Of a DNA stretch of 64,000 nt, positions 8,832 through 63,374 are shown piece after piece. Under the pieces are notes generated by a model. The model made no database searches, had not been told where the DNA came from, and saw only the letters and a program-made list of their open reading frames with translations. The stretch spans positions 1,398 to 65,397 of the forward strand of contig LBRM01000004.1 in the NCBI GenBank assembly GCA_000991415.1. The letters run 5' to 3'. The position numbers and the translations under genes were made by a program. Source of the stretch: Candidatus Nomurabacteria bacterium GW2011_GWA1_36_15. GTDB lineage: Bacteria > Patescibacteriota > Minisyncoccia > Phycocordibacterales > UBA9973. Within the stretch, counting starts at the first letter, position 1, and every line of letters begins with the position of its first letter.

Positions 8832-8942
8832 CGGTTCTCGTAATTCGGATGGCAATGTTCCGAACTCGAACTGGAACAACGACAAGTTCAATGTGAATTC
8901 AAATAATCCGGACAATGCGAATCCAAACTTGTCTCTCCGCCA
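8832..8942 (+). repeat. DGR template repeat (TR)
   Basis: Non-coding copy of VR; in VR frame encodes GSRNSDGNVPNSNWNNDKFNVNSNNPDNANPNLSLRQ, i.e. 12+ AAY codons, hallmark of adenine-directed mutagenesis templates; 3' end diverges from VR (IMH-like). Confidence 0.8.
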
Positions 8943-8956
8943 GAAGTTTCTCACTT

Positions 8957-8988
8957 AAATCCGCTTTCAATTTTGATTGAGCGGATTT
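8957..8988 (+). promoter_or_regulatory. stable hairpin immediately 3' of TR (possible DGR RNA structural element / terminator)
   Basis: aaatccgct-(14 nt loop)-agcggattt, 9-bp stem, followed by TTTTGTGTTT. Confidence 0.5.
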
Positions 8989-9302
8989 TGTGTTTGCAGA
9001 TATTTTAACCAACCATTTGTCATTTTAGAAATTTCTTGCAATTTTAGTTCTATGTTTAGATATGCTTTTTCTGTTATGACTTTTATTTCATATTCTGTTC
9101 TGAATAATTGTTTTAATGTTTCTATTTGGAGTCTTGCTTTCTTGACCGAAGTTACCTTTTCAGATTTTGGTTCAAGTGAAGCGTTTATTAAAAAAGAAAA
9201 AGCTTGTAAAAATTCTTTTTCAATATAATTATGAATTCCCAATTTGTCTCGTTTCGGCAACTTGTTGCCAATCGTATACACATAGATATATAATTTTCTC
9301 AT
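8967..9302 (-). CDS. avd: Avd-like accessory variability determinant (four-helix-bundle, TIGR02436-like)
   Basis: 111 aa; IYVYTIGNKLPKRDKLGIHNYIEKEF... matches FPKxEKyGLxsQirRAA pattern and C-terminal EIsKMtngWL of bAvd-type proteins; sits between TR and RT but on the opposite strand. Confidence 0.6.
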   Translation of the reverse strand: MRKLYIYVYTIGNKLPKRDKLGIHNYIEKEFLQAFSFLINASLEPKSEKVTSVKKARLQIETLKQLFRTEYEIKVITEKAYLNIELKLQEISKMTNGWLKYLQTQNPLNQN

Positions 9303-9328
9303 TTTGTGAACAACAGGGATGTTAAAAA

Positions 9329-10369
9329 TTGCGTCGGGGGGGGGCTGTTAAAAGTCTTTTCCATAATGTAATAAGTTTATCAAATTTACTTCAAGCTTGG
9401 AAGGAATTTAAAAGGTGTAAAACTAAAAAGACAGATGTTGCTGAATTCGAATTTGATTTAGAAAATAATCTATTTTCTCTACATCAAGAATTGATAAATA
9501 AAACTTACAAACCTACAAAATATCAAGCATTTTTTGTACATGATCCAAAACGCAGACATATACATAAGGCAATAGTCCTAGATAGAGTTTTAAATCAAGC
9601 TATTTTTAGAATTCTTTATCCTATTTTTGATAAACATTTTATTTCTGATTCATATTCTTCACGGGTTAAAAAGGGAACACACGAAGCATCAAGAAGACTT
9701 TTTATAGCTTTACGTAAAAAGAGCGAGAATTGGAAACGACCAGTTTTTGTTCTTAAGTGTGATATTAGAAAATTTTTTGATTCAATAGATCATATTATAT
9801 TATTTGAGTTAATTAAGAAAAAAATTTTAGATATAGATACTTTATGGCTAATCAGCATAATATTACAAAGTTTTGAGAAGTCTTCAAATACTGGGCTTCC
9901 TCTTGGCAATGCGACTAGTCAACTTTTTGCTAATATCTATTTAAATGAATTAGACCAGTTTATAAAACATAAACTCGAAGTTAAGCATTATTTTAGATAT
10001 GCTGATGATTTTGTCATTTTGCAAAATAACAAAATATATCTTGAAAACCTTTTAGAACAGACAGAAGATTTTTTAAAGAATAATTTAAAATTGAATTTGC
10101 ATCCAGATAAAGTTTTTATAAGGAAATTAAAACAAGGAATAGATTTTGTTGGTTATGTTATTTTACCTGATGTGACTGTATTGCGGACAAAAACAAAGAA
10201 AAGAATCTTAAAAAAACTAAAAAAAGCACAAAAAGAATTTCTAGCTGGAAAGATAAGCAAAAACGAGTTTCAACAAATTCAGGCTTCTTATATAGGCGTG
10301 TTGAAACATTGTAGAAGTAATAAAATTAAAAGAGAAATTAAAAAAAGAATGGTTGCTTTTAAAATATAA
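9329..10369 (+). CDS. DGR-type reverse transcriptase
   Basis: 346 aa; RT motifs: N-terminal LFHNVISLSNLLQAWKEFKRCK, KCDIRKFFDSIDH, GLPLGNATSQLFANIYL (DGR-specific (I/L)GxxxSQ), FRYADDFVIL (YxDD). Track start is TTG 9329; ATG 9319 is out of frame by 1 across a G9 homopolymer. Confidence 0.88.
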   Translation: MRRGGAVKSLFHNVISLSNLLQAWKEFKRCKTKKTDVAEFEFDLENNLFSLHQELINKTYKPTKYQAFFVHDPKRRHIHKAIVLDRVLNQAIFRILYPIFDKHFISDSYSSRVKKGTHEASRRLFIALRKKSENWKRPVFVLKCDIRKFFDSIDHIILFELIKKKILDIDTLWLISIILQSFEKSSNTGLPLGNATSQLFANIYLNELDQFIKHKLEVKHYFRYADDFVILQNNKIYLENLLEQTEDFLKNNLKLNLHPDKVFIRKLKQGIDFVGYVILPDVTVLRTKTKKRILKKLKKAQKEFLAGKISKNEFQQIQASYIGVLKHCRSNKIKREIKKRMVAFKI

Positions 10370-10389
10370 AATGCTAATATGTCTATATT

Positions 10390-10608
10390 ATGGTAGTACG
10401 AATGAGACATACAAAGTCGCATACAAAGAACAGGCGTTCTCATCATGCGTTAGTGAGCACAGGTCTTTCTAAGTGCGAAAATTGTAAGAATTTTAAGAAA
10501 CGCCACACAGTTTGCTTGTCCTGTGGATTTTATCGCGGAACGAAAGTATTAGATTTGATTAAAAAAATGGAAAAGAAGCAAAAGAGAGAAAAAGCAAAAA
10601 AGGCATAG
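10390..10608 (+). CDS. rpmF: 50S ribosomal protein L32
   Basis: MVVRMRHTKSHTKNRRSHHAL...CxxC...CxxCG zinc-ribbon typical of L32. Confidence 0.85.
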   Translation: MVVRMRHTKSHTKNRRSHHALVSTGLSKCENCKNFKKRHTVCLSCGFYRGTKVLDLIKKMEKKQKREKAKKA

Positions 10609-27096: not shown

Positions 27097-27483
27097 ATGG
27101 AAAAAGAATATGATAATTGGAATAAATTAAAAAAAGATTTATCAACCAAGGAATCAAAAATTTTCTTTCATGAAAGGGAAGTTTGGTACTGCTCTTTAGG
27201 TAAAAATATTGGTTACGAAGAAGACGGCAAAAATGAATTATTTGAAAGACCAATTCTTATCGTTAGAAAATTTAATAATGATATATTCCTAGCTATTCCA
27301 TTAACTAGTTCAAAAAAAGATAATAAATACTACCATCAATACGAATTCAGTGGAAAAACTTTTGCTGGTATCCTATCGCAAATAAGATTATTAGACAGTA
27401 GGAGGCTTTCTAGAAAAATTGGGATGATAAAAGAAAGTGATTTTAGTACTATAATTAAAAAGATTCACAATGTTCTTCCATAA
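27097..27483 (+). CDS. mazF: PemK/MazF-family endoribonuclease toxin (orphan; no adjacent small antitoxin ORF)
   Basis: 128 aa; EREVWYCSLGKNIGYEEDGKNELFERPILIVRKFNNDIFLAIPLTS and GILSQIRLLDSRRLSRKIGMIKESDF align with EndoA/MazF core (GDVY..L.P..GSEQ.G.RPVLVI...TS...QIRTIDKQRL..KI..L); starts 5 bp after rpoC stop. Confidence 0.75.
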   Translation: MEKEYDNWNKLKKDLSTKESKIFFHEREVWYCSLGKNIGYEEDGKNELFERPILIVRKFNNDIFLAIPLTSSKKDNKYYHQYEFSGKTFAGILSQIRLLDSRRLSRKIGMIKESDFSTIIKKIHNVLP

Positions 27484-27488
27484 AAGAC

Positions 27489-27515
27489 GAAACCCCCTTG
27501 CGGGGGTTTCTCGGA
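27489..27515 (+). terminator. hairpin / probable terminator
   Basis: gaaaccccc-ttgc-gggggtttc 9-bp GC-rich stem; weak U-tract. Confidence 0.45.
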
Positions 27516-27558
27516 GGCCGAAGCCATTTACCACTAGAGTATAGCAAATGTAAAATAT

Positions 27559-28191
27559 ATGTCAAATGAAGAAGTGGAAAATATAAATCCCTTTAAAAAA
27601 GTAGAAAATTCTTTAACCAAAGAGCAATTTTTAAATATAGATGAGGTATTTAAGGATAATCTCGAAATAGCTAATATATTTAATGCAAACAAAGAATTAT
27701 TTCAGAAATATCTTGATAGTATTTTTCCAGATAGTAAGGTTAAGGAAATTGTCTGGCATGGAACAAATTCAAAATTTGAAGAAGAAAAATTTGATAAATC
27801 AAGAATAGGTACATCTACTCAAAATATTACTAGTAAATTTGGATTTTATTTTGTTCCAGATAAAAAAGTCGCTGGAATTTTTACAAAAGGAAGTAAAATA
27901 GAAGCAGATAAGGGAATTATTCGACCCGAGAATTCAAAAATATATCCTGTACTTTTATTAATAAAAAATCCTGAAATAATAGAAGGAAAAATTTTTAGAG
28001 AATATGCTGAAAGAAATGAAATGCCACCTCTAAGACTAAATGGTGATTCTATTATAATTAATGCACAGACTAGTGATGCTAATGTTGAATTTTGTGTTAA
28101 AAACTATGTAGTATTTGAACCAGAACAAATTCATATTCTAGGTTCAGAGCAAGATATCTTACAAGCTAAAGAATGGTTAAAAAACAAATGA
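27559..28191 (+). CDS. putative ADP-ribosyltransferase-fold protein (PARP/Tpt1-like H-G-T ... Y ... E)
   Basis: 210 aa; EIVWHGTNSKFEEEKF resembles PARP LLWHGSRTTNF and KptA LYHGTASRFLDEIKK; FGFYFVPD resembles GIYFAD; C-terminal NYVVFEPEQIHILG resembles tankyrase/PARP NEYVIYRGEQ catalytic-Glu strand. Assignment by motif inspection only. Confidence 0.4.
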   Translation: MSNEEVENINPFKKVENSLTKEQFLNIDEVFKDNLEIANIFNANKELFQKYLDSIFPDSKVKEIVWHGTNSKFEEEKFDKSRIGTSTQNITSKFGFYFVPDKKVAGIFTKGSKIEADKGIIRPENSKIYPVLLLIKNPEIIEGKIFREYAERNEMPPLRLNGDSIIINAQTSDANVEFCVKNYVVFEPEQIHILGSEQDILQAKEWLKNK

Positions 28192-29015
28192 TGATAAACT
28201 CTCCCGTGCAACAAATTAAGGAGAGGCTTTCAATCGAAGAAATAGTCTCTTCCTATATAAAGTTAGAAAAGGCAGGCGCGAATTTTAAAGCCAGATGTCC
28301 ATTTCATAACGAAAAAACACCGTCTTTTTTTGTGTCGCCGGATCGCGCCAGTTACTATTGTTTCGGTTGCGGAGCCAAAGGCGATATTTTTTCTTTTATT
28401 GAAGAATTTGAAGGGCTTGATTTTAAGGGCGCCTTAAAAATCCTGGCAGAGCGAGCGGGAATTCCTTTAGTGCAGTACAGTAAAGAAAAAGAAGGAGAGA
28501 AAGAAAAATTATACCGAGCGATGGAAGAAGCTACCAAATTTTTTGAAAAAAATTTAGCAGAAAATAAGAAAATACTGGAATACTTGAAATCAAGAGGTCT
28601 AGAAGAAAAAACAATCGGAGATTTTAAAATTGGATTTTCTTTGCTTGATTGGAGAACGTTATTTGAGTATTTGAAATCTAAAGGTTTTTCTGATAAAGAA
28701 ATTGAACTTGCTGGTTTGGTAAAGAAGACAGAGAAAGGATTTTATGACAGATTTCGCGGAAGAATAATGTTTCCAATTTCTGATTCAAGCGGTCGCATTA
28801 TTGCTTTTTCCGGCAGGATTTTTGAAGATGACGGTAAATCAGCCAAATATCTGAATAGCCCGGACACTCCAATCTTCAGTAAATCGGCAGTTTTGTATGG
28901 ATTGGATAAAGCCAAAGAATCGATTCGCAAAAATAATTTTTCTATTCTGGTGGAAGGACAAATGGATTTGATCTTATCTCATCAGGCTGGATTTAGAAAT
29001 ACCGTAGCCATTTAG
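28173..29015 (+). CDS. dnaG: DNA primase DnaG, N-terminal fragment (zinc-binding + start of TOPRIM), truncated by TAG created by 19-bp tandem duplication
   Basis: CPFHNEKTPSFFVSPDRASYYCFGCGAKGD CHC2 zinc finger; RNA-polymerase domain; ends ...ILVEGQMDLILSHQAGFRNTVAI*. Confidence 0.85.
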   Translation: MVKKQMMINSPVQQIKERLSIEEIVSSYIKLEKAGANFKARCPFHNEKTPSFFVSPDRASYYCFGCGAKGDIFSFIEEFEGLDFKGALKILAERAGIPLVQYSKEKEGEKEKLYRAMEEATKFFEKNLAENKKILEYLKSRGLEEKTIGDFKIGFSLLDWRTLFEYLKSKGFSDKEIELAGLVKKTEKGFYDRFRGRIMFPISDSSGRIIAFSGRIFEDDGKSAKYLNSPDTPIFSKSAVLYGLDKAKESIRKNNFSILVEGQMDLILSHQAGFRNTVAI

Positions 29016-55087: not shown

Positions 55088-55156
55088 TTTACCCACACAT
55101 TATATTAATACAATATGTGGGTTTACTTTTTATTTCTTTTATTTTATAATCTAATT

Positions 55157-55542
55157 GGTCCTGTATTGGATAGTTGCCCCTCACTGATTTTTAATTCAGT
55201 GGGGGGAGGAAAGTCCGAACACAGCGATCCCTTTTTCTAGGGTGGGAATAGTAGTGGGTAACACCCACATATAGCAATATATAGGTGCGAACAGAGACGT
55301 TTTGTGGTGAAAGCCCCAGAACATCCCCCACCAATTTTACGGTTGGTGGGGGATGAGTTCTACGGTAACGTAGAAAATGAAACGGCTAAATCCTTACTTC
55401 TGTGCAAGATCGTGTTCCCCACCCAGATTCTGGGTGGGGGGAGAATCGCTTGAGTCCTAGAGCAATCTAGGACCTAGATAAATAACTATCACCCTGAACT
55501 TTTTGTAAAGGGCACAGAATTCGGCTTATAGATACAAGACCA
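55157..55542 (+). ncRNA. rnpB: RNase P RNA (bacterial type A)
   Basis: P4 strands GGAGGAAAGTCCGAACACAG and ACAGAATTCGGCTTA (cf. E. coli GGAGGAAAGUCCGGGCUCC / ACAGAACCCGGCUUA); terminal P1 pairing ggtcctgtat/atacaagacc; GNRA-rich internal hairpins. Confidence 0.85.
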
Positions 55543-55550
55543 AAAATATG

Positions 55551-55580
55551 AAAAATCCTCTCGCAAGAGAGGATTTTTCT
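55551..55580 (+). terminator. rho-independent terminator after rnpB
   Basis: aatcctctc-gcaa-gagaggatt + TTTTT. Confidence 0.8.
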
Positions 55581-55685
55581 GTTGTACGGGGTAAAAACTT
55601 GCTTTTTTATTTAATATATGATATACTCGTTTTGTGAGTGTGAGGTTAGATTCATACTTATCGTAAACAACATAAGTGCCGCAAA

Positions 55686-56928: not shown

Positions 56929-57141
56929 TAAAAAGCATAAATAAACAGATACTAAGAATTATCCCTATTTTTATTGGAGATATTTAAAGGACATAGTAAT
57001 GTCCGATAGAATAATTTATGTCCTTTATAGCAAAAAAGAAAAAAAATTTTTTGCTTTTTTGTCCTATTAAATTATTTTACGGACATATAAGCTTGACATT
57101 ATATTTTCTATATGTAATATATCTATTAGCAAAAATAATTA

Positions 57142-57276: not shown

Positions 57277-58908
57277 ATGAAAAACATTAAATCAAAAGTC
57301 TTATCATTCGCTATCGTTTTGTTTTTGCTTCTTTCTTTTGGCAGTTTGAATACTTCAATAGCCCAAGCTGTTGAAGCTCAGCCTGTTTGCACTCTTGAAC
57401 AAATATCCGGCAGAACCATTGTTGACCTTACTCCTTATAACGGATTACGTTCAGATTCGGATGAAGCGGCTGCTACAGGAGGACCGTTTGCTACAGTATT
57501 AGTAGCAGGAACATATGATGTAACCTTGCAGTCTTATGATAATCATACAGAGAAAAATCAAATCCAGCCAAATGAACAGTGGTATCTTATTTTGAAAGAT
57601 ATAGGAGATAGCACTATTGCCACCACTTCTGCCATTAGTGATTTACCTGACGATATAGACAACTTGACAGAAATCGTGGATACAAATTTTGTTTTAACGA
57701 GTTCTGTTACATCAGCCACAACCTATCATGATGCTTATCCAGATTCTACTAGTGCAAATAGTATCCGTCCTGTCTGTGCAGCCTTTGATTTAGTTCTTCC
57801 CCCAACCGCTACCATTGAAGCTGTAAAAATTATTTGTCCGACCGAAGATCTACTTCCGAATTGGGGAGCAGGTGGAGAAGACATAACATCCGATACTGCA
57901 AGTGCTTTTTTGGAAGCTAATCCGACTTGTTATACTGAAGATTGGACATTTGAATGGGCTCCAGACAGTACGGTAAATCCAGGCAACCAGACAGAAACGG
58001 GAGGTGAGGATTGGACTGCTTTCACTTCTAGCGCTACAGTTCCAGCAGGAGCCTTAATCTGGGTTCGCGAACAATTCAATAGTGATTACATTTCATTTAG
58101 CGGAGACACTACCGAACCCCGAGATGAAGATGTTTCCGCGGAATTTTACTGCAGTAACGATGTATTAAATTATGATAACTATGATTTTATTGACCCGGTA
58201 GAAGCAGACCAGACTTACTACTGCGTAGGATTCAATGCGCCGATAGAACAACCGACAACAAATCCGCAATGTTCCGATGATGTTGATAATGACGGGGATG
58301 AACTTATAGATTCTGCCGACCCAGGCTGTCATAGTGATGGGAATGCAAGCGATACAGAATCATATGTTCCTAGTGACAATGATGAAACGGATGAAGATGA
58401 TGACGGTGGCGGAGGTGGTGGCGGGGGAAGTGGCAGCCATACGCGATGTTCCGATAACGACGATGGATTAGTAGATAGCGCTGACCCTGGATGCCATTCT
58501 GACGGTAATGCAAGTAATGCTGACTCATACGTTCCATCTGATAGTGACGAACAAAATGGAGGTCAAGTGCTCGGCGCTCAGACTTCCTGCGGTATTTATG
58601 TTGATAAATATCTGCGCAGGGGTTATAAAAACGACGCAGAGGCGGTTAAAAAAGTACAGCTATTTTTGAATGATTACTTGAAATTAAAATTAGAAGTAGA
58701 CGGAATCTATGGGTCTAAAACCGAAGAAGCGGTAAGGGTTTTCCAGATTTTGCACAAAGATAAGATTTTAACCCCATGGGGTGTTACGGCTTCTACCGGC
58801 ATATTCTATCTGACCACTCAAACCGAGGTGAATAATATTATGTGTCCGGATTTGAACTTGCAAATTCCAAGCAACTTGATTAACTTTACCGCTAGTATGA
58901 TTAATTGA
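57277..58908 (+). CDS. secreted repeat-containing protein with C-terminal peptidoglycan-binding (PG_binding_1-like) domain
   Basis: Signal peptide; two ~40-aa Asp-rich repeats CSDxxDNDGDxLxDSADPGCHSDGNASxxxSYVPSDxDE separated by poly-Gly; C-terminus VQLFLNDYLKLKLEVDGIYGSKTEEAVRVFQ. Confidence 0.6.
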   Translation: MKNIKSKVLSFAIVLFLLLSFGSLNTSIAQAVEAQPVCTLEQISGRTIVDLTPYNGLRSDSDEAAATGGPFATVLVAGTYDVTLQSYDNHTEKNQIQPNEQWYLILKDIGDSTIATTSAISDLPDDIDNLTEIVDTNFVLTSSVTSATTYHDAYPDSTSANSIRPVCAAFDLVLPPTATIEAVKIICPTEDLLPNWGAGGEDITSDTASAFLEANPTCYTEDWTFEWAPDSTVNPGNQTETGGEDWTAFTSSATVPAGALIWVREQFNSDYISFSGDTTEPRDEDVSAEFYCSNDVLNYDNYDFIDPVEADQTYYCVGFNAPIEQPTTNPQCSDDVDNDGDELIDSADPGCHSDGNASDTESYVPSDNDETDEDDDGGGGGGGGSGSHTRCSDNDDGLVDSADPGCHSDGNASNADSYVPSDSDEQNGGQVLGAQTSCGIYVDKYLRRGYKNDAEAVKKVQLFLNDYLKLKLEVDGIYGSKTEEAVRVFQILHKDKILTPWGVTASTGIFYLTTQTEVNNIMCPDLNLQIPSNLINFTASMIN

Positions 58909-59179
58909 ATACTATTTCCTTAAATAGCTTAAAATTCTGATGAGAATCAGCCTTTTTGGCGTTGTTAATTTGCGAGTATAATTTCTAAAGGACATAATAT
59001 AAACATGTCCGATAAAGCATTGATGTTCGATAGAAAATGATAAAATTATTTTAGCAATGGGGATTTTTGTATTTTGAAGTTATACACATGTTGTATATGT
59101 TTTTGGTTTTTTTTGCTTACTTTTTGGTTGCTTTTTGATATAATAAACACCATATTATTAATAATTAATTATAAAAATT

Positions 59180-59992
59180 ATGACTAAGAAAACTTTTTTT
59201 ATTCTTTTTGTAGTCTTGTTTCTTACCGGTATTTTAACCAGTAATGCAAATGCGAATCATTCATGGAATGGATATCACTGGGCCCGTACAGGGAATCCAT
59301 TCACCTTAAAACTGGGAGATAATGTCTCTTCCTTGTGGGATAACTATCTTGGAGTTGCATCAACTGATTGGACTCTGTCATCGGTTTTAAATACTACTAT
59401 TGTATCTGGACTTGGAGGTAAAAATTGTAAACCATCTGCCGGTCGAGTTGAAGTCTGTAATAAGAAATATGGAAATAATGGCTGGCTTGGTATAGCGCAA
59501 ATATGGGTGAATGGTAGTCATATTACCCAAGCTGTTACAAAAATGAACGATACCTACTTTAATCTAAAAACTTACAATACCCCGGCATGGAAACAATTTG
59601 TGGTTTGCCAAGAAATTGGGCATACGTTCGGACTAGACCATCAAGATGAAAACTTTAGTAACGCGAACTTAGGCACTTGTATGGATTACACTAATGACCC
59701 TGACGGTACTATTAGGGGACAAATGGATAACAAACATCCCAACCAACATGATTACGATATGCTTGAAACAATTTATGCGCATCTAGACAGTTTTAGCACT
59801 CTTCTTGGTAAAATTGGGAAAACCCCTTCTGCATCTATATTGGTAGAAAAAGTAGACGATAACATTGATATTTCAAATTCGTCAGAATGGGGTAAGGTTA
59901 TAAGAAAAGGGAGTGATGGACGTAGCTCTCTCCATGAACGTGACTTAGGTAAAGGAAACAAGGTATTTACCTTTGTTATCTGGGCGGAATAG
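59180..59992 (+). CDS. secreted metzincin-like protein with variant zinc motif QEIGHTFGLDH (first His replaced by Gln) and Met-turn
   Basis: Signal peptide; QEIGHTFGLDHQ cf. matrixin HEFGHSLGLDHS; downstream CMDY Met-turn. Confidence 0.55.
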   Translation: MTKKTFFILFVVLFLTGILTSNANANHSWNGYHWARTGNPFTLKLGDNVSSLWDNYLGVASTDWTLSSVLNTTIVSGLGGKNCKPSAGRVEVCNKKYGNNGWLGIAQIWVNGSHITQAVTKMNDTYFNLKTYNTPAWKQFVVCQEIGHTFGLDHQDENFSNANLGTCMDYTNDPDGTIRGQMDNKHPNQHDYDMLETIYAHLDSFSTLLGKIGKTPSASILVEKVDDNIDISNSSEWGKVIRKGSDGRSSLHERDLGKGNKVFTFVIWAE

Positions 59993-60161
59993 AATATTTT
60001 TAGTTTAAGCAAGGACTGTCCTTGCTTAGCTCAAATAACTTCATAGATATTTATACTTTGCTTTTTAAGTTTTAAGAGATGATTCGTAGATATTTATTGT
60101 TTTTACTTATCCACACAAACTCTTGTGCTTATTTGCAGTATAGCATATAATTTAAACCAAA

Positions 60162-60205: not shown

Positions 60206-60796
60206 ATGGAAAAAGATTACATTTTAGACCTAATGAGATCAAACAAAACAGTCTTTACTTTCAAAGATGTAATTTTACTGTGGGGAGAATCAGATATGAA
60301 TTTTGTTAAGAAAAAGATTAATCGCTATGTTAAAGCAGGTAAACTAAATGCAATACGTAGAGGTATTTATTCAAAAGACAAAAATTATGATAAATACGAA
60401 TTGGCCACAAAAATATATACTCCTTCATACATTAGTTTGGAAACAGCATTAGGCGCGGCCGGAATCACATTTCAGTTCTATGGCCAGATTTTTGCTGTCT
60501 CCTATCAAACAAAGGAAATTGAATGCGACAAACAAAAATATTCTTATCGTAAAATTAAAGATACTATTCTCACTAATCAAGCCGGTATAGAGTCAAGAGA
60601 AAATTACAATATCGCTTCGCCCGAGAGAGCATTCTTAGATGTTGTCTATCTTAATAAAGATTATCACTTTGATAATCTTTCGGCTTTGAATTGGGATAAG
60701 GTTTATGAAATTTTACCTGTTTATGGTGGTAACAAACGAATGGCAAAAATGGTGAAAATATATCATAAAGCAATGAAACAAAATTTAAAGCAATAA
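60206..60796 (+). CDS. abiEi: AbiEi-family antitoxin/transcriptional regulator (type IV TA / abortive infection)
   Basis: N-terminal wHTH FTFKDVILLWGESDMNFVKKKINRYVKAGKLNAIRRGIY; PSYISLETALGAAGI; ERAFLDVVYL - matches AbiEi conserved blocks. ORF track start 60125 probably too far upstream. Confidence 0.7.
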   Translation: MEKDYILDLMRSNKTVFTFKDVILLWGESDMNFVKKKINRYVKAGKLNAIRRGIYSKDKNYDKYELATKIYTPSYISLETALGAAGITFQFYGQIFAVSYQTKEIECDKQKYSYRKIKDTILTNQAGIESRENYNIASPERAFLDVVYLNKDYHFDNLSALNWDKVYEILPVYGGNKRMAKMVKIYHKAMKQNLKQ

Positions 60797-60823
60797 TCAT
60801 ATTTATAGTGAATTTTTTGAACT

Positions 60824-61528
60824 ATGGCTCTTAATACCGCAAAACATAAAAATATTTTCATAAAAATCCTTAAAGATATCTATACTGATTCCACTATTAG
60901 TACGATTTTAGGATTTAAAGGTGGAACAGCTGCTGCACTTTTCTATAATCTTGACCGTTTCTCGGTAGATTTGGATTTTGATTTGCTTGACGCCGAAAAA
61001 GAGGACTATGTATTTGAACGTGTCAAAGCAATACTTGAAAATTACGGAAAATTAAAGCAGGTACAGAAGAAAAGGTTTAACTTTTTTTACATCCTTTCCT
61101 ATGACGAAAAAGATATTAACGCTCAAAATATCAAGGTGGAAATCAATCGCCGTGAATTTGGCTCAAAATACGATGTGAAATCATTCCTTGGTATTTCTAT
61201 GCAGGTAATGATTAAAGAGGATATGGCCGCCCATAAGCTCTGTGCGATGTACGAGCGAATCGGTAAAACCAATCGAGATATTTTTGATGTGCAATTTATT
61301 TTGGCACATGATTGGCCGGTGAACAAAAAGATTGTTGAGATTCGTACGGGTATGACCTATAAAGATTTTATAAATAAGGCCATTGACGTTATGGAAAAAT
61401 TTAATGACAGAAATATACTTTCCGGTATGGGTGAATTATTGACCGAGAAACAAAAAACATGGGCAAGAGCAAAGCTAAAATCTGATACAATTTTCTTATT
61501 GAAAGTTATGGCTAAGTTCAACAAGTAA
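60824..61528 (+). CDS. abiEii: AbiEii/AbiGii-family nucleotidyltransferase toxin (DUF1814)
   Basis: ILGFKGGTAAALFYNLDRFSVDLDFD (GS/GGTAL...R.S.DLDF NTase core), downstream of abiEi. Confidence 0.7.
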   Translation: MALNTAKHKNIFIKILKDIYTDSTISTILGFKGGTAAALFYNLDRFSVDLDFDLLDAEKEDYVFERVKAILENYGKLKQVQKKRFNFFYILSYDEKDINAQNIKVEINRREFGSKYDVKSFLGISMQVMIKEDMAAHKLCAMYERIGKTNRDIFDVQFILAHDWPVNKKIVEIRTGMTYKDFINKAIDVMEKFNDRNILSGMGELLTEKQKTWARAKLKSDTIFLLKVMAKFNK

Positions 61529-61681
61529 GTGCAACACTTCTAGTAAATAGCAAGGACCGTTCTTACTATTTGTGTTATTTGAGAAGTGGGAGTTGTGGGT
61601 AGTTGTTGTGTAGATTATCAGATTTTTGGGTAGATTTAGTGAATACTTGTGTAGTTTTGGATAATATGATAGTATTTATTT

Positions 61682-62401
61682 ATGGAAGAGGAATTATTTA
61701 CAATCAGCCAGGCGGCTAAATATCTCGGGGTTTCTTTGAATACGTTGCGTCGTTGGGACGAAAACGGTAGATTAATTGCTATAAGAAAAGATGGAGGCAC
61801 TCATCGGTATTATCGAGAAAAAGAGTTAGAAATTTTTGCCAGCGATTTGATGAAATTTGCCTCCGAGTGGATTCAAGAAAGCGTGGAGTTTCCTAATAGG
61901 TTTTATTGTTCAACAAGCTCTATTTTCAACGCAAGACTGACAAAGATGGAGTATGAACTTATGCAAAAACCAGGTTTTGAAAAATTATACTCTTTGATTG
62001 TTTTAATTACTGGAGAAATAGGTGATAATTCATTTGCTCATAATTTGGGTAAGTGGCCTGATACAGCTGGAATTTTTTTTGGATATGATCTCGTCAAACG
62101 TATTATTGTTCTGGCGGATAGAGGATTGGGTATTTTAGAAACATTACGTCAGGTTCGACCAGAACTTCCAAGCCACGTTATGGCGGTGGAAGTTGCGTTT
62201 ACTGAATTCATTTCTGGGCGCTCACCGGAAAAGCGTGGTAATGGACTTAAGCTTGTTCGCGAGGTGGTCCTGGAGCAGTCGATTGATTTATTTTTTACGA
62301 GTGGCGATGCCGAAGTACGCATGAAAGGTTCCGGTAAGGTATTTCATGTTACGCGTGGTCAGCGTATTGTGCGAGGGTGTTTAGCAAAGATAGAGTTTTA
62401 A
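61682..62401 (+). CDS. MerR/excisionase-type HTH fused to GHKL (histidine-kinase-like, RsbW-like) ATPase domain
   Basis: N-terminus TISQAAKYLGVSLNTLRRWDENGRLIAIRKDGGTHRYYREKELEIF; GHKL N-box EIGDNSFAHN, G1 DRGLGI, G2 GNGLKLV. Confidence 0.6.
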   Translation: MEEELFTISQAAKYLGVSLNTLRRWDENGRLIAIRKDGGTHRYYREKELEIFASDLMKFASEWIQESVEFPNRFYCSTSSIFNARLTKMEYELMQKPGFEKLYSLIVLITGEIGDNSFAHNLGKWPDTAGIFFGYDLVKRIIVLADRGLGILETLRQVRPELPSHVMAVEVAFTEFISGRSPEKRGNGLKLVREVVLEQSIDLFFTSGDAEVRMKGSGKVFHVTRGQRIVRGCLAKIEF

Positions 62402-62712
62402 TAAATTTAAAAAAATATATGAAATTACAATTAGAAAAGTTTGGCAAAACATTAATATCACGGGAAGTGGGCAGTGAGGCTTTTAAGGCATTTCAGCCAA
62501 CCTTGCGTGAGTTTTCTAAAGATGAAGAGCTGGAAATAGATTTTTCTGGCGTATTAACATTATCGCCGTCCTGGGCTGATGAATTTTTAAGTCCCTTATT
62601 TGCTCTTCTGGATAATCGCTTAGTGTTTTTACCGAGCGATAATCTTTCAGTGCACGCGACGCTTAAGATTCTAGAAGAGGTTAACAAACGACCATTCAAG
62701 ATTAAATCTTAA
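62377..62712 (+). CDS. DUF4325-like STAS-domain protein (partner of preceding GHKL ATPase; 25-bp overlap)
   Basis: 111 aa; LEIDFSGVLTLSPSWADEFLSPLF resembles STAS/anti-sigma-antagonist-like DUF4325 core. Confidence 0.5.
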   Translation: MFSKDRVLINLKKYMKLQLEKFGKTLISREVGSEAFKAFQPTLREFSKDEELEIDFSGVLTLSPSWADEFLSPLFALLDNRLVFLPSDNLSVHATLKILEEVNKRPFKIKS

Positions 62713-63374
62713 CCTATTTGTTTTTAAAATATTTAAAGGATGTTGGTAAACAATGTGATGTCCGATAGAAAAATCAGTTACTAAATTTTTGTTATTAGCA
62801 CATAACATTGACAAGATGTCTAGTTTATGCTAATGTATAGTTAGTTACTTGAAAGCCCGGTGATGGACACTAGATAATTGCTTTTTATAAAGCAGTTCCC
62901 TTATTTAGTGTTCATCATCGGGCTTTTTTGTTTCTTGTTGACTAGACAAGACCTAGTCAAAGACCTAGTCAAAGCATAATATATAATGGCTATTACTATT
63001 ATACGACCTGAAGCAATAAAACGAAAGGTATGGGGATTTTATACACAGTTTATTAACAGATACTATTTGACATATTTGTGTGAAATGGCAATATAGTTCG
63101 TAGTAGTATATTCACAAACCAATGAATTGGTTTTATGGATAGAAAAATAAATCAAGATTCTTGCTGGGAACCAAGAGTATGGATATTGGAGTAAAGATAA
63201 AAGATCAAGGAATCTGATTTATGTTAAAAAAATTCTCAAGATCAATATTTACTCAATAAATATTCTATATTTATATAAAATCCTATTTGATATAGGATTC
63301 TGTTCTTTAATAAATCCGAATCGTTGTGTTTTGTATTTTATTAAATTTTTCAAAATATAGAAAGGAAAATATGT

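What the first reader, a model, noticed from the sequence alone, without database searches (positions are those of the whole stretch)
56985..57036. Recurring motif TAAAGGACAT...ATGTCCGATAGA(A) in three intergenic regions of the terminal accessory island
Sites at 56985-57027, 58984-59037 and 62734-62772 each contain AAAGGA followed a few to 20 nt later by ATGTCCGATAGAA. The site at 58984 has two ATG copies. Two readings are possible. One is a conserved SD plus start codon of tiny leader peptides beginning MSDR: 23 aa at 56999, MSDKALMFDRK at 59003, MSDRKISY at 62758. These would precede the secreted repeat protein, the metzincin and the ugd gene, in other words leader-peptide or uORF control. 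The other reading is an operator with GGACAT/ATGTCC inverted arms (ggacat-agta-atgtcc; ggacat-N9-atgtcc) overlapping the -10/TSS of these promoters. Related AAGGAC-cored hairpins occur at 60005-60025 and 61549-61560.
Basis: seen in the sequence. Interest (0 to 1): 0.55.

Follow-up and report, generated by a model that had tools for sequence, protein, structure and literature searches.

The report
Conserved Patescibacteria operator-like DNA repeats
The three sites are real copies of a 12-13 bp DNA half-site (ATGTCC-nnT-AGAA) that is conserved across many uncultivated Patescibacteria, sits beside genes for secreted cell-surface proteins, and saturates the gene and promoter of a lineage-specific DNA-binding protein, so it is most likely that protein's binding site, not a leader peptide.

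Summary
AAAGGA-N(3-30)-ATGTYCGATARA occurs three times in the window, with none expected by chance. The unit is a 12-13 nt half-site, ATGTCC[G/T][A/T]TA[G/T]AA. "TAAAGGACAT" is the same half-site read on the other strand.

Public-collection scans found the same element in about 60 Patescibacteria contigs and only chance-like single hits elsewhere.

- **Inside a regulator gene.** About half of the copies lie in one lineage-specific gene encoding a four-helix bundle, a disordered linker and a C-terminal winged helix. There the DNA motif dictates the peptides KGH, SIGH, MSDR and IKDI through strongly biased codons in two reading frames. That gene's promoter carries a palindrome of the half-site over its -10 box.
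- **Intergenic copies.** The rest share an A-B-C architecture and sit mostly next to signal-peptide genes, above all large PG_binding_1 proteins, as in the window.

My best reading is an operator array for that regulator, controlling a cell-envelope gene set (confidence about 0.6). The leader-peptide reading fails because ORF length, sequence and SD spacing are not conserved. RNA pairing shows no covariation.

Not shown: protein binding, and whether this genome encodes the regulator. I found no description of the element in Rfam or in the paper library.

The parts
56980..56994 (-). Site 1, box A: half-site ATGTCCTTTAAATAT on the minus strand (plus strand TAAAGGACAT at 56985-56994).
   Evidence: Weight-matrix score 13.0 bits. 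Identical in relatives L133, L137 and L138.
56999..57011 (+). Site 1, box B: ATGTCCGATAGAA.
   Evidence: Exact 13-mer, 15.6 bits. The same 13-mer occurs in about 60 Patescibacteria loci.
57018..57029 (+). Site 1, box C: ATGTCCTTTATA. It is a direct repeat of box B 19 nt downstream and the inverted partner of box A.
   Evidence: 15.0 bits. The A-B-C architecture is shared with 12 independent intergenic elements.
57059..57086 (.). Two weak half-sites, TTGTCCTATTAAATT (+) and ATGTCCGTAAAATAA (-), just upstream of the -35 box.
   Evidence: 9.0 and 9.1 bits. Conserved in relatives. Membership in the family is uncertain.
57093..57120 (+). Best sigma-70-like promoter for the secreted PG_binding_1 gene (TTGACA-16-TAATAT).
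   Evidence: 10 of 12 consensus positions. Conserved in L133, L137 and L138. A consensus match only, not evidence of function.
57277..58908 (+). Signal-peptide protein with a PG_binding_1 domain. This is the gene family most consistently found next to the element.
   Evidence: Pfam PF01471. Homologous or analogous PG_binding_1 genes neighbour the element in L040, L049, L074, L103 and L148, and follow the regulator gene in L057, L061, L089, L100 and L151.
58981..58995 (-). Site 2, box A: ATGTCCTTTAGAAAT on the minus strand (plus strand TAAAGGACAT at 58986-58995).
   Evidence: 17.1 bits, the best hit in the window. Conserved in L137 and L138.
59005..59016 (+). Site 2, box B1: ATGTCCGATAAA.
   Evidence: 12.5 bits. 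The same variant is kept in L137 and L138.
59023..59035 (+). Site 2, box B2: ATGTTCGATAGAA, 18 nt after B1. It carries a C-to-T change relative to the consensus.
   Evidence: Relatives L137 and L138 have the consensus ATGTCCGATAGAA at this position.
59180..59992 (+). Signal-peptide metzincin-like protein downstream of site 2. This is a variable cassette.
   Evidence: Weak Reprolysin matches. A source names it an M10 peptidase domain protein. In L137 it is replaced by a 118-aa membrane ORF behind the same promoter.
62734..62743 (+). Site 3, degenerate box A: TAAAGGATGT.
   Evidence: It has two mismatches to the half-site core. L137 has an intact TAAAGGACAT at the equivalent place, but a decayed box B.
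62758..62770 (+). Site 3, box B: ATGTCCGATAGAA.
   Evidence: Exact 13-mer, 15.8 bits.
62808..62935 (+). Downstream of site 3: a promoter-like TTGACA-17-TAATGT, a long hairpin and a T run (a small-RNA-like unit), ahead of the ugd/glycosyltransferase operon.
   Evidence: inverted repeat I3. 93% conserved in L137. No Rfam family. Function unknown.

Best explanation
The three sites are arrays of a 12-13 bp DNA half-site, ATGTCC[G/T][A/T]TA[G/T]AA.
- Box A is the half-site inverted.
- Boxes B and C are direct copies, spaced about one or two helical turns apart.

They belong to a cis-regulatory element conserved across Patescibacteria. The most likely binder is a lineage-specific regulator of about 270-330 aa, with an N-terminal four-helix bundle, a disordered linker of about 100 aa and a C-terminal winged helix. 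Its long flexible tether would let the DNA-binding domains reach half-sites of variable spacing and orientation.

That regulator would control its own gene. A half-site palindrome lies over its -10 box, and further sites lie in its 5' UTR and throughout its coding region. It would also control a small set of cell-envelope genes, chiefly large secreted peptidoglycan-binding proteins.

In the window the targets would be:
- the PG_binding_1 protein (site 1);
- the metzincin-like protein (site 2);
- the small-RNA/ugd polysaccharide region (site 3).

**Shown:** motif reality, conservation, gene associations, selection on the nucleotide sequence inside the regulator gene, and the regulator's fold.
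**Inferred:** that this protein binds the motif, the direction of regulation (repression at its own promoter; unknown at the window's sites), and that the window's genome encodes it.
For: 1. The motif is non-random in the window.
2. The degenerate pattern scan of species-representative genomes gave 82 loci. About 16 are Patescibacteria, despite their tiny share of the database, and these carry clustered extra copies. The rest are single, chance-like hits.
3. The strict scan of metagenomes gave 48 loci, essentially all of Patescibacteria type.
4. 12 of those 16 loci, and about 22 of the 48, lie in or next to one protein family. That family has at least 780 members, and every source name given for one is a Patescibacteria lineage.
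5. The AlphaFold model shows a four-helix bundle, a disordered stretch at residues 145-245 and a winged helix. Foldseek matches the C-terminal domain to ArsR, BlaI/MecI and Fur DNA-binding domains. Pfam gives HTH_DeoR.
6. Codon evidence for selection on the DNA:
   - KGH is AAAGGACAT in 34 of 35 cases, against 0.17 expected from codon usage.
   - IKDI inside the winged helix is ATAAAGGACAT in 21 of 24 cases, against about 0.06 expected. It is in a different reading frame and was not part of the search pattern.
   - SIG[HQ] is TCTATNGGACA in 18 of 18 cases.
7. In 10 or more orthologues the regulator's promoter is TTGACT-N18-TATAAT with ATGTCCGTTATATAATGGACA over the -10 box, plus 2-3 AAAGGACA sites in the 5' UTR.
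8. Three orthologues were fetched by protein identity rather than by the DNA pattern (L151, L157, L158). They have 6, 10 and 9 half-site hits, all in or within 200 nt of that gene, and none in the remaining 3.5-12 kb.
9. Intergenic copies share the A-B-C architecture. B-to-C spacing is 12 or 19-21 nt.
10. Intergenic copies sit in promoter regions, several between divergent genes, next to signal-peptide genes, a pilB-like ATPase, or yraN-tRNA-Pro.
11. The regulator gene is always followed by a large PG_binding_1 gene. This is the same family that the window's sites 1 and 2 flank.
12. The site 1 intergenic region is 96-100% conserved in relatives whose flanking coding sequence is about 85% identical.
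Against: - No homologue of the regulator lies in the 64-kb window or in the 8.7 kb beyond it. I could not locate one in this genome.
- No binding data exist.
- The element's distance to the nearest sigma-70-like promoter varies from 14 to about 118 nt, so there is no single promoter geometry.
- The weight matrix was trained largely on sites inside the regulator gene. Its hits in orthologous genes are therefore partly homology rather than independent evidence.
- Boxes A and C can also form a 10-bp RNA stem, which sequence conservation alone cannot exclude.
- Site 3 is degenerate, and so is its counterpart in L137. It may be decaying.
Confidence: 0.6

Rival explanations
1. It is an RNA element. 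Boxes A and C form a 10-bp stem with box B presented in the loop (or A pairs with the first 6 nt of B). The structure would act in the 3' UTR of the upstream gene or the 5' UTR of the downstream gene, for example as a protein-binding hairpin, a processing site or a stabiliser.
For: - Site 1 folds into a 12-bp hairpin with z = -4.2.
- RNAalifold predicts the A:C stem in all 13 independent elements.
- About 74% of copies point the same way as a downstream gene.
- Site 3's GGAUGU could still pair with AUGUCC through G-U pairs on the plus strand only.
Against: - There are no compensatory changes. The four deviating cells break pairs, and the covariation term is unfavourable.
- Sites 2 and 3 do not fold better than shuffles.
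- Both arms and the 'loop' box B are conserved in sequence, not just in pairing.
- Several copies lie upstream of the predicted -35 box of a gene with no co-directional gene before them, for example between divergent genes in L040, L049, L104 and L148, and ahead of the tRNA-Pro promoter.
- In the regulator gene the boxes occur singly and in both orientations.
- No Rfam family matches.
Confidence: 0.15
2. Boxes A and B form a promoter for an alternative sigma factor of the sigma-28 (FliA/SigD/WhiG) type, whose consensus is TAAA-N15-GCCGATAA (recalled from general knowledge).
For: Compact copies read TAAA-N12-17-TCCGATAG. The resemblance to the sigma-28 consensus rests on my own knowledge and was not tested.
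Against: - The A-B gap ranges over 2-7, 8-16 and 24 nt. Sigma-28 spacing is tight.
- This reading does not explain box C, the reverse copies of box B, or the palindrome over the sigma-70-type -10 box of the regulator gene.
- The only sigma gene seen in the window is rpoD.
Confidence: 0.05
3. The sites are translated leader peptides or uORFs (MSDR...), with AAAGGA serving as the Shine-Dalgarno sequence.
For: - Site 1 has a canonical 7-nt SD-to-ATG spacing.
- Several compact copies have 5-9 nt spacing.
- The motif is read as in-frame MSDR inside the regulator gene.
Against: - ORF length runs from 5 to more than 50 codons.
- Nothing is conserved past the motif-encoded residues.
- Spacing ranges from 3 to 31 nt.
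- The ORFs run into tRNA genes in L136 and L064.
- The same half-site also functions inverted, as box A and as SIGH.
Confidence: 0.03
4. It is a selfish or recombinational repeat: either a REP/MITE-like palindromic element, or an att/attC-like site at which the accessory cassettes are exchanged.
For: - The sites bracket variable genes. The metzincin cassette and the HTH/STAS cassette differ between the window and L137.
- The regulator's linker also hosts other palindromic REP-like inserts.
Against: - Only three sites occur in 73 kb.
- There is no integrase or transposase nearby.
- The cassette breakpoints do not coincide with the element. The metzincin swap starts about 140 nt downstream of site 2, behind the promoter, and the HTH/STAS insertion lies upstream of an element that L137 also has.
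- The element keeps syntenic positions across distant lineages, such as the regulator promoter and yraN-tRNA-Pro.
Confidence: 0.05

Closest known systems
Autoregulated winged-helix repressors with repeat operators (ArsR/SmtB, BlaI/MecI and DeoR types)
   Same: - The C-terminal winged helix matches these folds.
- A palindromic site lies over the -10 box of the regulator's own promoter.
- Further copies lie upstream of a small set of other genes.
   Different: - The domain order is reversed, with the DNA-binding domain at the C-terminus.
- The partner domain is a four-helix bundle of the 23S-rRNA-IVS-protein type.
- A disordered linker of about 100 aa separates the two.
- Many extra sites lie inside the coding region.
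- No Pfam or NCBIfam family covers the whole protein.
AraC-type binding through a flexible tether (general knowledge)
   Same: The half-sites occur as direct and as inverted repeats with variable spacing. A flexibly tethered DNA-binding domain would tolerate this.
   Different: There is no sequence or fold relationship. This is an analogy of mechanism only and is untested.
ParB/Spo0J with a parS site inside its own gene (general knowledge)
   Same: The binding sites are embedded in the coding sequence of the presumed binder. The gene lies next to ftsK, and a perfect DnaA box lies just downstream in several loci.
   Different: There is no ParB domain. Here there are several half-sites per gene in two reading frames, plus a promoter palindrome. 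Copies elsewhere lie in promoter regions of envelope genes and are not clustered at an origin.
Sigma-28 (FliA/SigD) promoter consensus TAAA-N15-GCCGATAA (general knowledge)
   Same: There is a surface resemblance between TAAAGG...TCCGATAG and this consensus in compact copies.
   Different: The spacing is not fixed, and the extra boxes and inverted copies are left unexplained.

Membership tests
Transcription-factor operator (autoregulated winged-helix regulator) | A candidate binder with a DNA-binding domain exists and co-occurs with the motif. | tested here: met
   The HTH_DeoR/winged-helix protein family is found in or next to 12 of about 16 genome hits and about 22 of 48 metagenome hits.
Transcription-factor operator (autoregulated winged-helix regulator) | The motif lies on the regulator's own promoter and is conserved across orthologues. 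| tested here: met
   ATGTCCGTTATATAATGGACA lies over the -10 box in 10 or more orthologues. It is also present in orthologues fetched by protein identity.
Transcription-factor operator (autoregulated winged-helix regulator) | The motif lies in upstream regions of a coherent gene set. | tested here: met
   Intergenic copies sit next to PG_binding_1 and other signal-peptide genes, a pilB-like gene, SIMPL and tRNA-Pro. The gene set was inspected by eye and not tested statistically.
Transcription-factor operator (autoregulated winged-helix regulator) | The same genome encodes the regulator. | tested here: inconclusive
   The regulator is absent from the window and from the extra 8.7 kb. The rest of the genome could not be fetched, and protein searches did not single out this assembly.
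Transcription-factor operator (autoregulated winged-helix regulator) | Direct protein-DNA binding. | not testable with these tools
   This needs EMSA, DAP-seq or ChIP.
Leader peptide / uORF control | A conserved small ORF with a functional SD spacing, located in the 5' UTR. | tested here: not met
   ORF length runs from 5 to more than 50 aa, spacing from 3 to 31 nt, and nothing is conserved beyond the motif. Most copies lie upstream of the predicted promoter.
Structured RNA family (Rfam or a new one) | A match to a curated family, or covariation that supports a helix. | tested here: not met
   No Rfam hit appears at the sites at gathering score or at E up to 5. None of the 12 predicted pairs shows a compensatory change.
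Sigma-28-type promoter | Fixed spacing between the TAAA and CCGATAA elements. | tested here: not met
   The gap between boxes varies from 2 to 24 nt.
REP/MITE-like repeat or integron-type attC site | High copy number, or an adjacent recombinase with cassette junctions at the repeat. | tested here: not met
   There are three sites in 73 kb. No integrase or transposase is present. The breakpoints against L137 lie outside the element.

The most novel reading that the evidence does not exclude
The regulator gene is itself a binding platform. A dozen copies of its own half-site are written into its promoter, its 5' UTR and its coding sequence in two reading frames. This forces the peptides KGH, SIGH, MSDR and IKDI into the protein.

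On this reading the gene would act as a nucleation or titration centre, parS-like or a roadblock-type autoregulator. It would couple the level of a lineage-wide regulator to expression of the giant peptidoglycan-binding surface proteins that episymbiotic Patescibacteria may use on their hosts.

The window's sites would be satellite operators of a phylum-wide regulon that has not been described.
Probability: 0.25. Interest if true: 0.75.

Novelty: new variant of a known kind. Interest (0 to 1): 0.6.

Why it matters
Almost nothing is known about gene regulation in Patescibacteria (CPR), which are uncultivated, have tiny genomes and encode few regulators.

This analysis yields a concrete, testable pairing:
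- a defined 12-13 bp site;
- a conserved lineage-specific regulator;
- candidate targets dominated by large secreted peptidoglycan-binding proteins, pilus and envelope genes, which are the kind of proteins expected to mediate attachment to hosts.

It is also a clear case of a DNA signal constraining a protein sequence. Codon choice in two reading frames is fixed by the site. This matters for interpreting 'conserved peptide motifs' in disordered linkers.

Tried and rejected
- **Rfam.** Scans at gathering score and at E up to 5 found nothing at the sites.
- **Viral contigs.** The scan gave only single chance hits. One look-alike, L007, lies inside a phage ORF.
- **Direct repeats bounding inserted cassettes.** I rejected this after aligning the window with L137, because the breakpoints are not at the element.
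- **Sigma-70 promoter formed by the boxes themselves.** Site 1 gives TTTAAA-18-TAGAAT, but no consistent -35 box appears across copies.
- **Relic of a decayed regulator gene.** No protein or HMM similarity exists in the window, and the A-B-C architecture is conserved independently of the gene.
- **Local regulators as the binder** (MerR-type HTH at 61682, AbiEi). I rejected these because their cassette is variable while the sites persist.
- **Finding the regulator in the window's own genome.** Two extra protein searches and synteny with ftsK/recA both failed.
- **Literature.** Searches for the 13-mer and for Patescibacteria regulons found nothing relevant.

Full report
**1. The observation**

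The sequence at 56985-57036, 58984-59037 and 62734-62772 is as described.
- The composite pattern AAAGGA-N{3,30}-ATGTYCGATARA occurs three times, with none in 100 dinucleotide shuffles.
- The 12-mer with up to 2 mismatches gives 9 matches against 4.1 expected. The four best all lie at the three sites.
- The hexamer ATGTCC/GGACAT occurs 24 times in 64 kb, and four copies lie within 100 nt at site 1.

All three sites are intergenic. They sit 22-78 nt after the stop codons of yceG, of a signal-peptide PG_binding_1 protein and of a STAS/DUF4325 protein. They lie 144-606 nt before the next start codons.

**2. Origin of the window**

The window is a Candidatus Nomurabacteria (Patescibacteria/CPR) population genome from Rifle groundwater. 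It is present in GCA_000990665.1 and GCA_000991125.1. The rest of the window is core genome: pheST, gyrB, rpoBC, dnaG, rpoD, RNR and rnpB.

**3. Anatomy of the element**

TAAAGGACAT is the reverse complement of ATGTCCTTTA. The unit is therefore one half-site, ATGTCC[G/T][A/T]TA[G/T]AA (weight matrix).
- **Site 1:** inverted half-site A (56980-56994), B (56999-57011), and C (57018-57029), which lies 19 nt after B.
- **Site 2:** A (58981-58995), B1 (59005-59016) and B2 (59023-59035).
- **Site 3:** a degenerate A (62734-62743) and B (62758-62770).

A matrix built only from other organisms gives four hits of at least 13 bits in the window. All four lie in these sites.

**4. The element is conserved across Patescibacteria**

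- A degenerate two-box scan of one genome per species gave 82 loci. About 16 are Patescibacteria (Yonath-, Nomura-, Ryan-, Paceibacterota and Saccharibacteria), and these carry clustered extra copies. The others are isolated matches of the kind chance would give.
- A strict scan of metagenomes gave 48 loci, essentially all of this type.
- The viral scan gave only chance hits.

Thirteen independent intergenic elements share the architecture tTTCTAAAGGACAT - N2-16 - ATGTCCGATAGAA - (0 or 8-9 nt) - (A)TGTCCTTTA(G/T)AA. B-to-C spacing is 12 or 19-21 nt, which is about one or two helical turns.

**5. Close relatives of the window**

Relatives at 80-95% identity (L133, L137, L138) keep site 1 at 96-100% identity, while the flanking genes are about 85% identical. 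They also keep both B copies of site 2.

The genes around the sites are variable.
- In L137 the metzincin gene is replaced by a 118-aa membrane ORF behind the same promoter.
- The MerR-HTH/STAS cassette is absent from L137.
- An element-like sequence still precedes the same downstream promoter in L137.

The breakpoints are not at the element, so it is not a cassette junction.

**6. The link to a regulator**

Twelve of the roughly 16 genome hits, and about 22 of the 48 metagenome hits, lie inside one protein family. In the Ryanbacteria locus the element lies immediately 3' of the gene.
- The family has at least 780-824 members. Every source name given for a member is a Patescibacteria lineage, annotated 'DeoR family' or hypothetical.
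- AlphaFold predicts a four-helix bundle (residues 19-143), a disordered linker (145-245) and a C-terminal winged helix.
- Foldseek matches the bundle to 23S-rRNA-IVS-type proteins (2gsc, 2rld). It matches the C-terminal domain to ArsR, BlaI/MecI and Fur DNA-binding domains.
- Synteny is constant: recA, a small gene and ftsK on one side, divergent from the regulator gene, which is followed by a large PG_binding_1 protein gene.

**7. The DNA, not the peptide, is selected**

In the linker the motif is translated as KGH (AAAGGACAT), SIGH/SIGQ (TCTATCGGACA, the reverse B) and MSDR (ATGTCCGATAGA). Of the 120 best family members, 78 contain MSDR, 86 contain KGH and 80 contain SIG[HQ].

Codon usage in 26 unique genes:

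| Peptide | Nucleotides | Observed | Expected from codon usage |
|---|---|---|---|
| KGH | AAAGGACAT | 34 of 35 | 0.17 |
| IKDI (in the winged helix) | ATAAAGGACAT | 21 of 24 | about 0.06 |
| SIG[HQ] | TCTATNGGACA | 18 of 18 | not computed for the whole word (TCT 0.26, GGA 0.40) |

- The IKDI site is in a different reading frame and was not part of the search pattern.
- The one MSDR outside the motif context uses ATGAGTGATCGT.

**8. Signature of autoregulation**

In 10 or more orthologues the regulator's promoter is TTGACT-N18-TATAAT, with ATGTCCGTTATATAATGGACA across the -10 box. Two or three AAAGGACA(C/T) sites lie in the 5' UTR.

Three orthologues were fetched by protein identity and so were not selected on the DNA pattern (L151, L157, L158). 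They have 6, 10 and 9 half-site hits of at least 11 bits. All are in or within 200 nt of the gene, and none are in the other 3.5-12 kb of each locus.

One caveat applies. The matrix was trained mostly on sites in such genes, so some of these hits reflect homology.

**9. Candidate targets**

Intergenic copies lie next to the following:
- PG_binding_1/PKD giant proteins (L040 on both sides, L049, L074, L103, L129, L148);
- other signal-peptide proteins;
- SIMPL/DUF541;
- a pilB/GspE-like ATPase (L104, L114);
- EamA-like genes;
- the yraN-tRNA-Pro junction, where box C sits 14-16 nt before a -10 box.

Several copies lie between divergent genes, so they cannot be 3' UTRs. In the window the best sigma-70-like promoters lie about 40-110 nt downstream of the element. 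The direction of regulation at these sites is therefore unknown.

**10. Rival readings**

- **Leader peptide.** ORFs from the box B ATG are 5 to more than 50 codons long. They share nothing past the motif, have SD spacings of 3-31 nt, and in two loci run into a tRNA gene.
- **RNA hairpin.** Site 1 folds well (z = -4.2), but sites 2 and 3 do not. The A:C stem shows no compensatory change among 13 elements, and the variants that exist break pairs. No Rfam family matches.
- **Sigma-28-like promoter.** The box spacing is not fixed.
- **REP/MITE or att site.** Copy number is low, no recombinase is nearby, and the breakpoints lie elsewhere.

**11. What is not shown**

- That the protein binds the site.
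- That the window's genome encodes the protein. It is absent from the 73 kb I could read, and I could not retrieve the rest of the genome.
- Whether the effect is activation or repression.

**12. Novelty**

Full-text searches found no description of the 13-mer or of such a regulon, and Rfam has no family for it. Within these limits it is an undescribed regulator-operator pair. The kind of system is familiar, but its sites are embedded in coding sequence to an unusual degree.

Noticed in passing
window 55134-55583 (rnpB at 55158-55544): The RNase P RNA gene is inverted relative to its flanks in close relatives. L133 carries it on the minus strand while the RNR and yceG flanks stay collinear. 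L138 shows the same pattern by BLAST. I found no clear flanking inverted repeats.
   Followed up: partly
window 62808-62935: A small-RNA-like unit: a TTGACA-17-TAATGT promoter, a hairpin with 26-nt arms (62852-62926) and a T run. It is 93% conserved in L137 and matches no Rfam family.
   Followed up: partly
window 62940-62975; L137 and L138 just downstream of site 2: A second recurring motif, GACTAG(A/G)CAAGACCTAGT(C/T)AAAG. It contains a TGACTAG/CTAGTCA inverted repeat and is present in 2.5 copies here. In relatives it sits at a different intergenic position.
   Followed up: no
window 59180-59992 and 61554-62785: Cassette variation against L137. The metzincin-like gene is swapped for a 118-aa membrane ORF behind an unchanged promoter and 5' leader. 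The MerR-type HTH protein (61682-62401) plus the STAS/DUF4325 protein (62419-62712) are present only in the window.
   Followed up: partly
window 60107-60115; L057 about 1770-1790; L151 about 6935: A perfect DnaA box (TTATCCACA) lies upstream of the AbiEi gene in the window. A perfect box also recurs between the regulator gene and the PG_binding_1 gene in unrelated loci. L089 has ATCCACA.
   Followed up: no
window about 8,900-10,400: A pair typical of a diversity-generating retroelement: a bAvd accessory protein next to an RVT_1 reverse transcriptase.
   Followed up: no
window 60206-61528 and about 27,100-28,200: Toxin-antitoxin or defence genes: an AbiEi/AbiEii pair, and a PemK toxin plus an ART-PolyVal protein between rpoC and dnaG.
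   Followed up: no
L057, L039, L051, L052 and many P-numbered proteins (regulator linker): The disordered linker of the regulator also carries other palindromic, REP-like DNA inserts, translated as SLRGGTTKQSS or RSDLAGTPEGRTFM. In L057 the same palindrome serves as the hairpin after the gene's stop codon.
   Followed up: no
L110 858-893; L141 1346-1389: The element also recurs at the 3' end of, or just after, the CCA-adding enzyme gene in two unrelated contigs.
   Followed up: no
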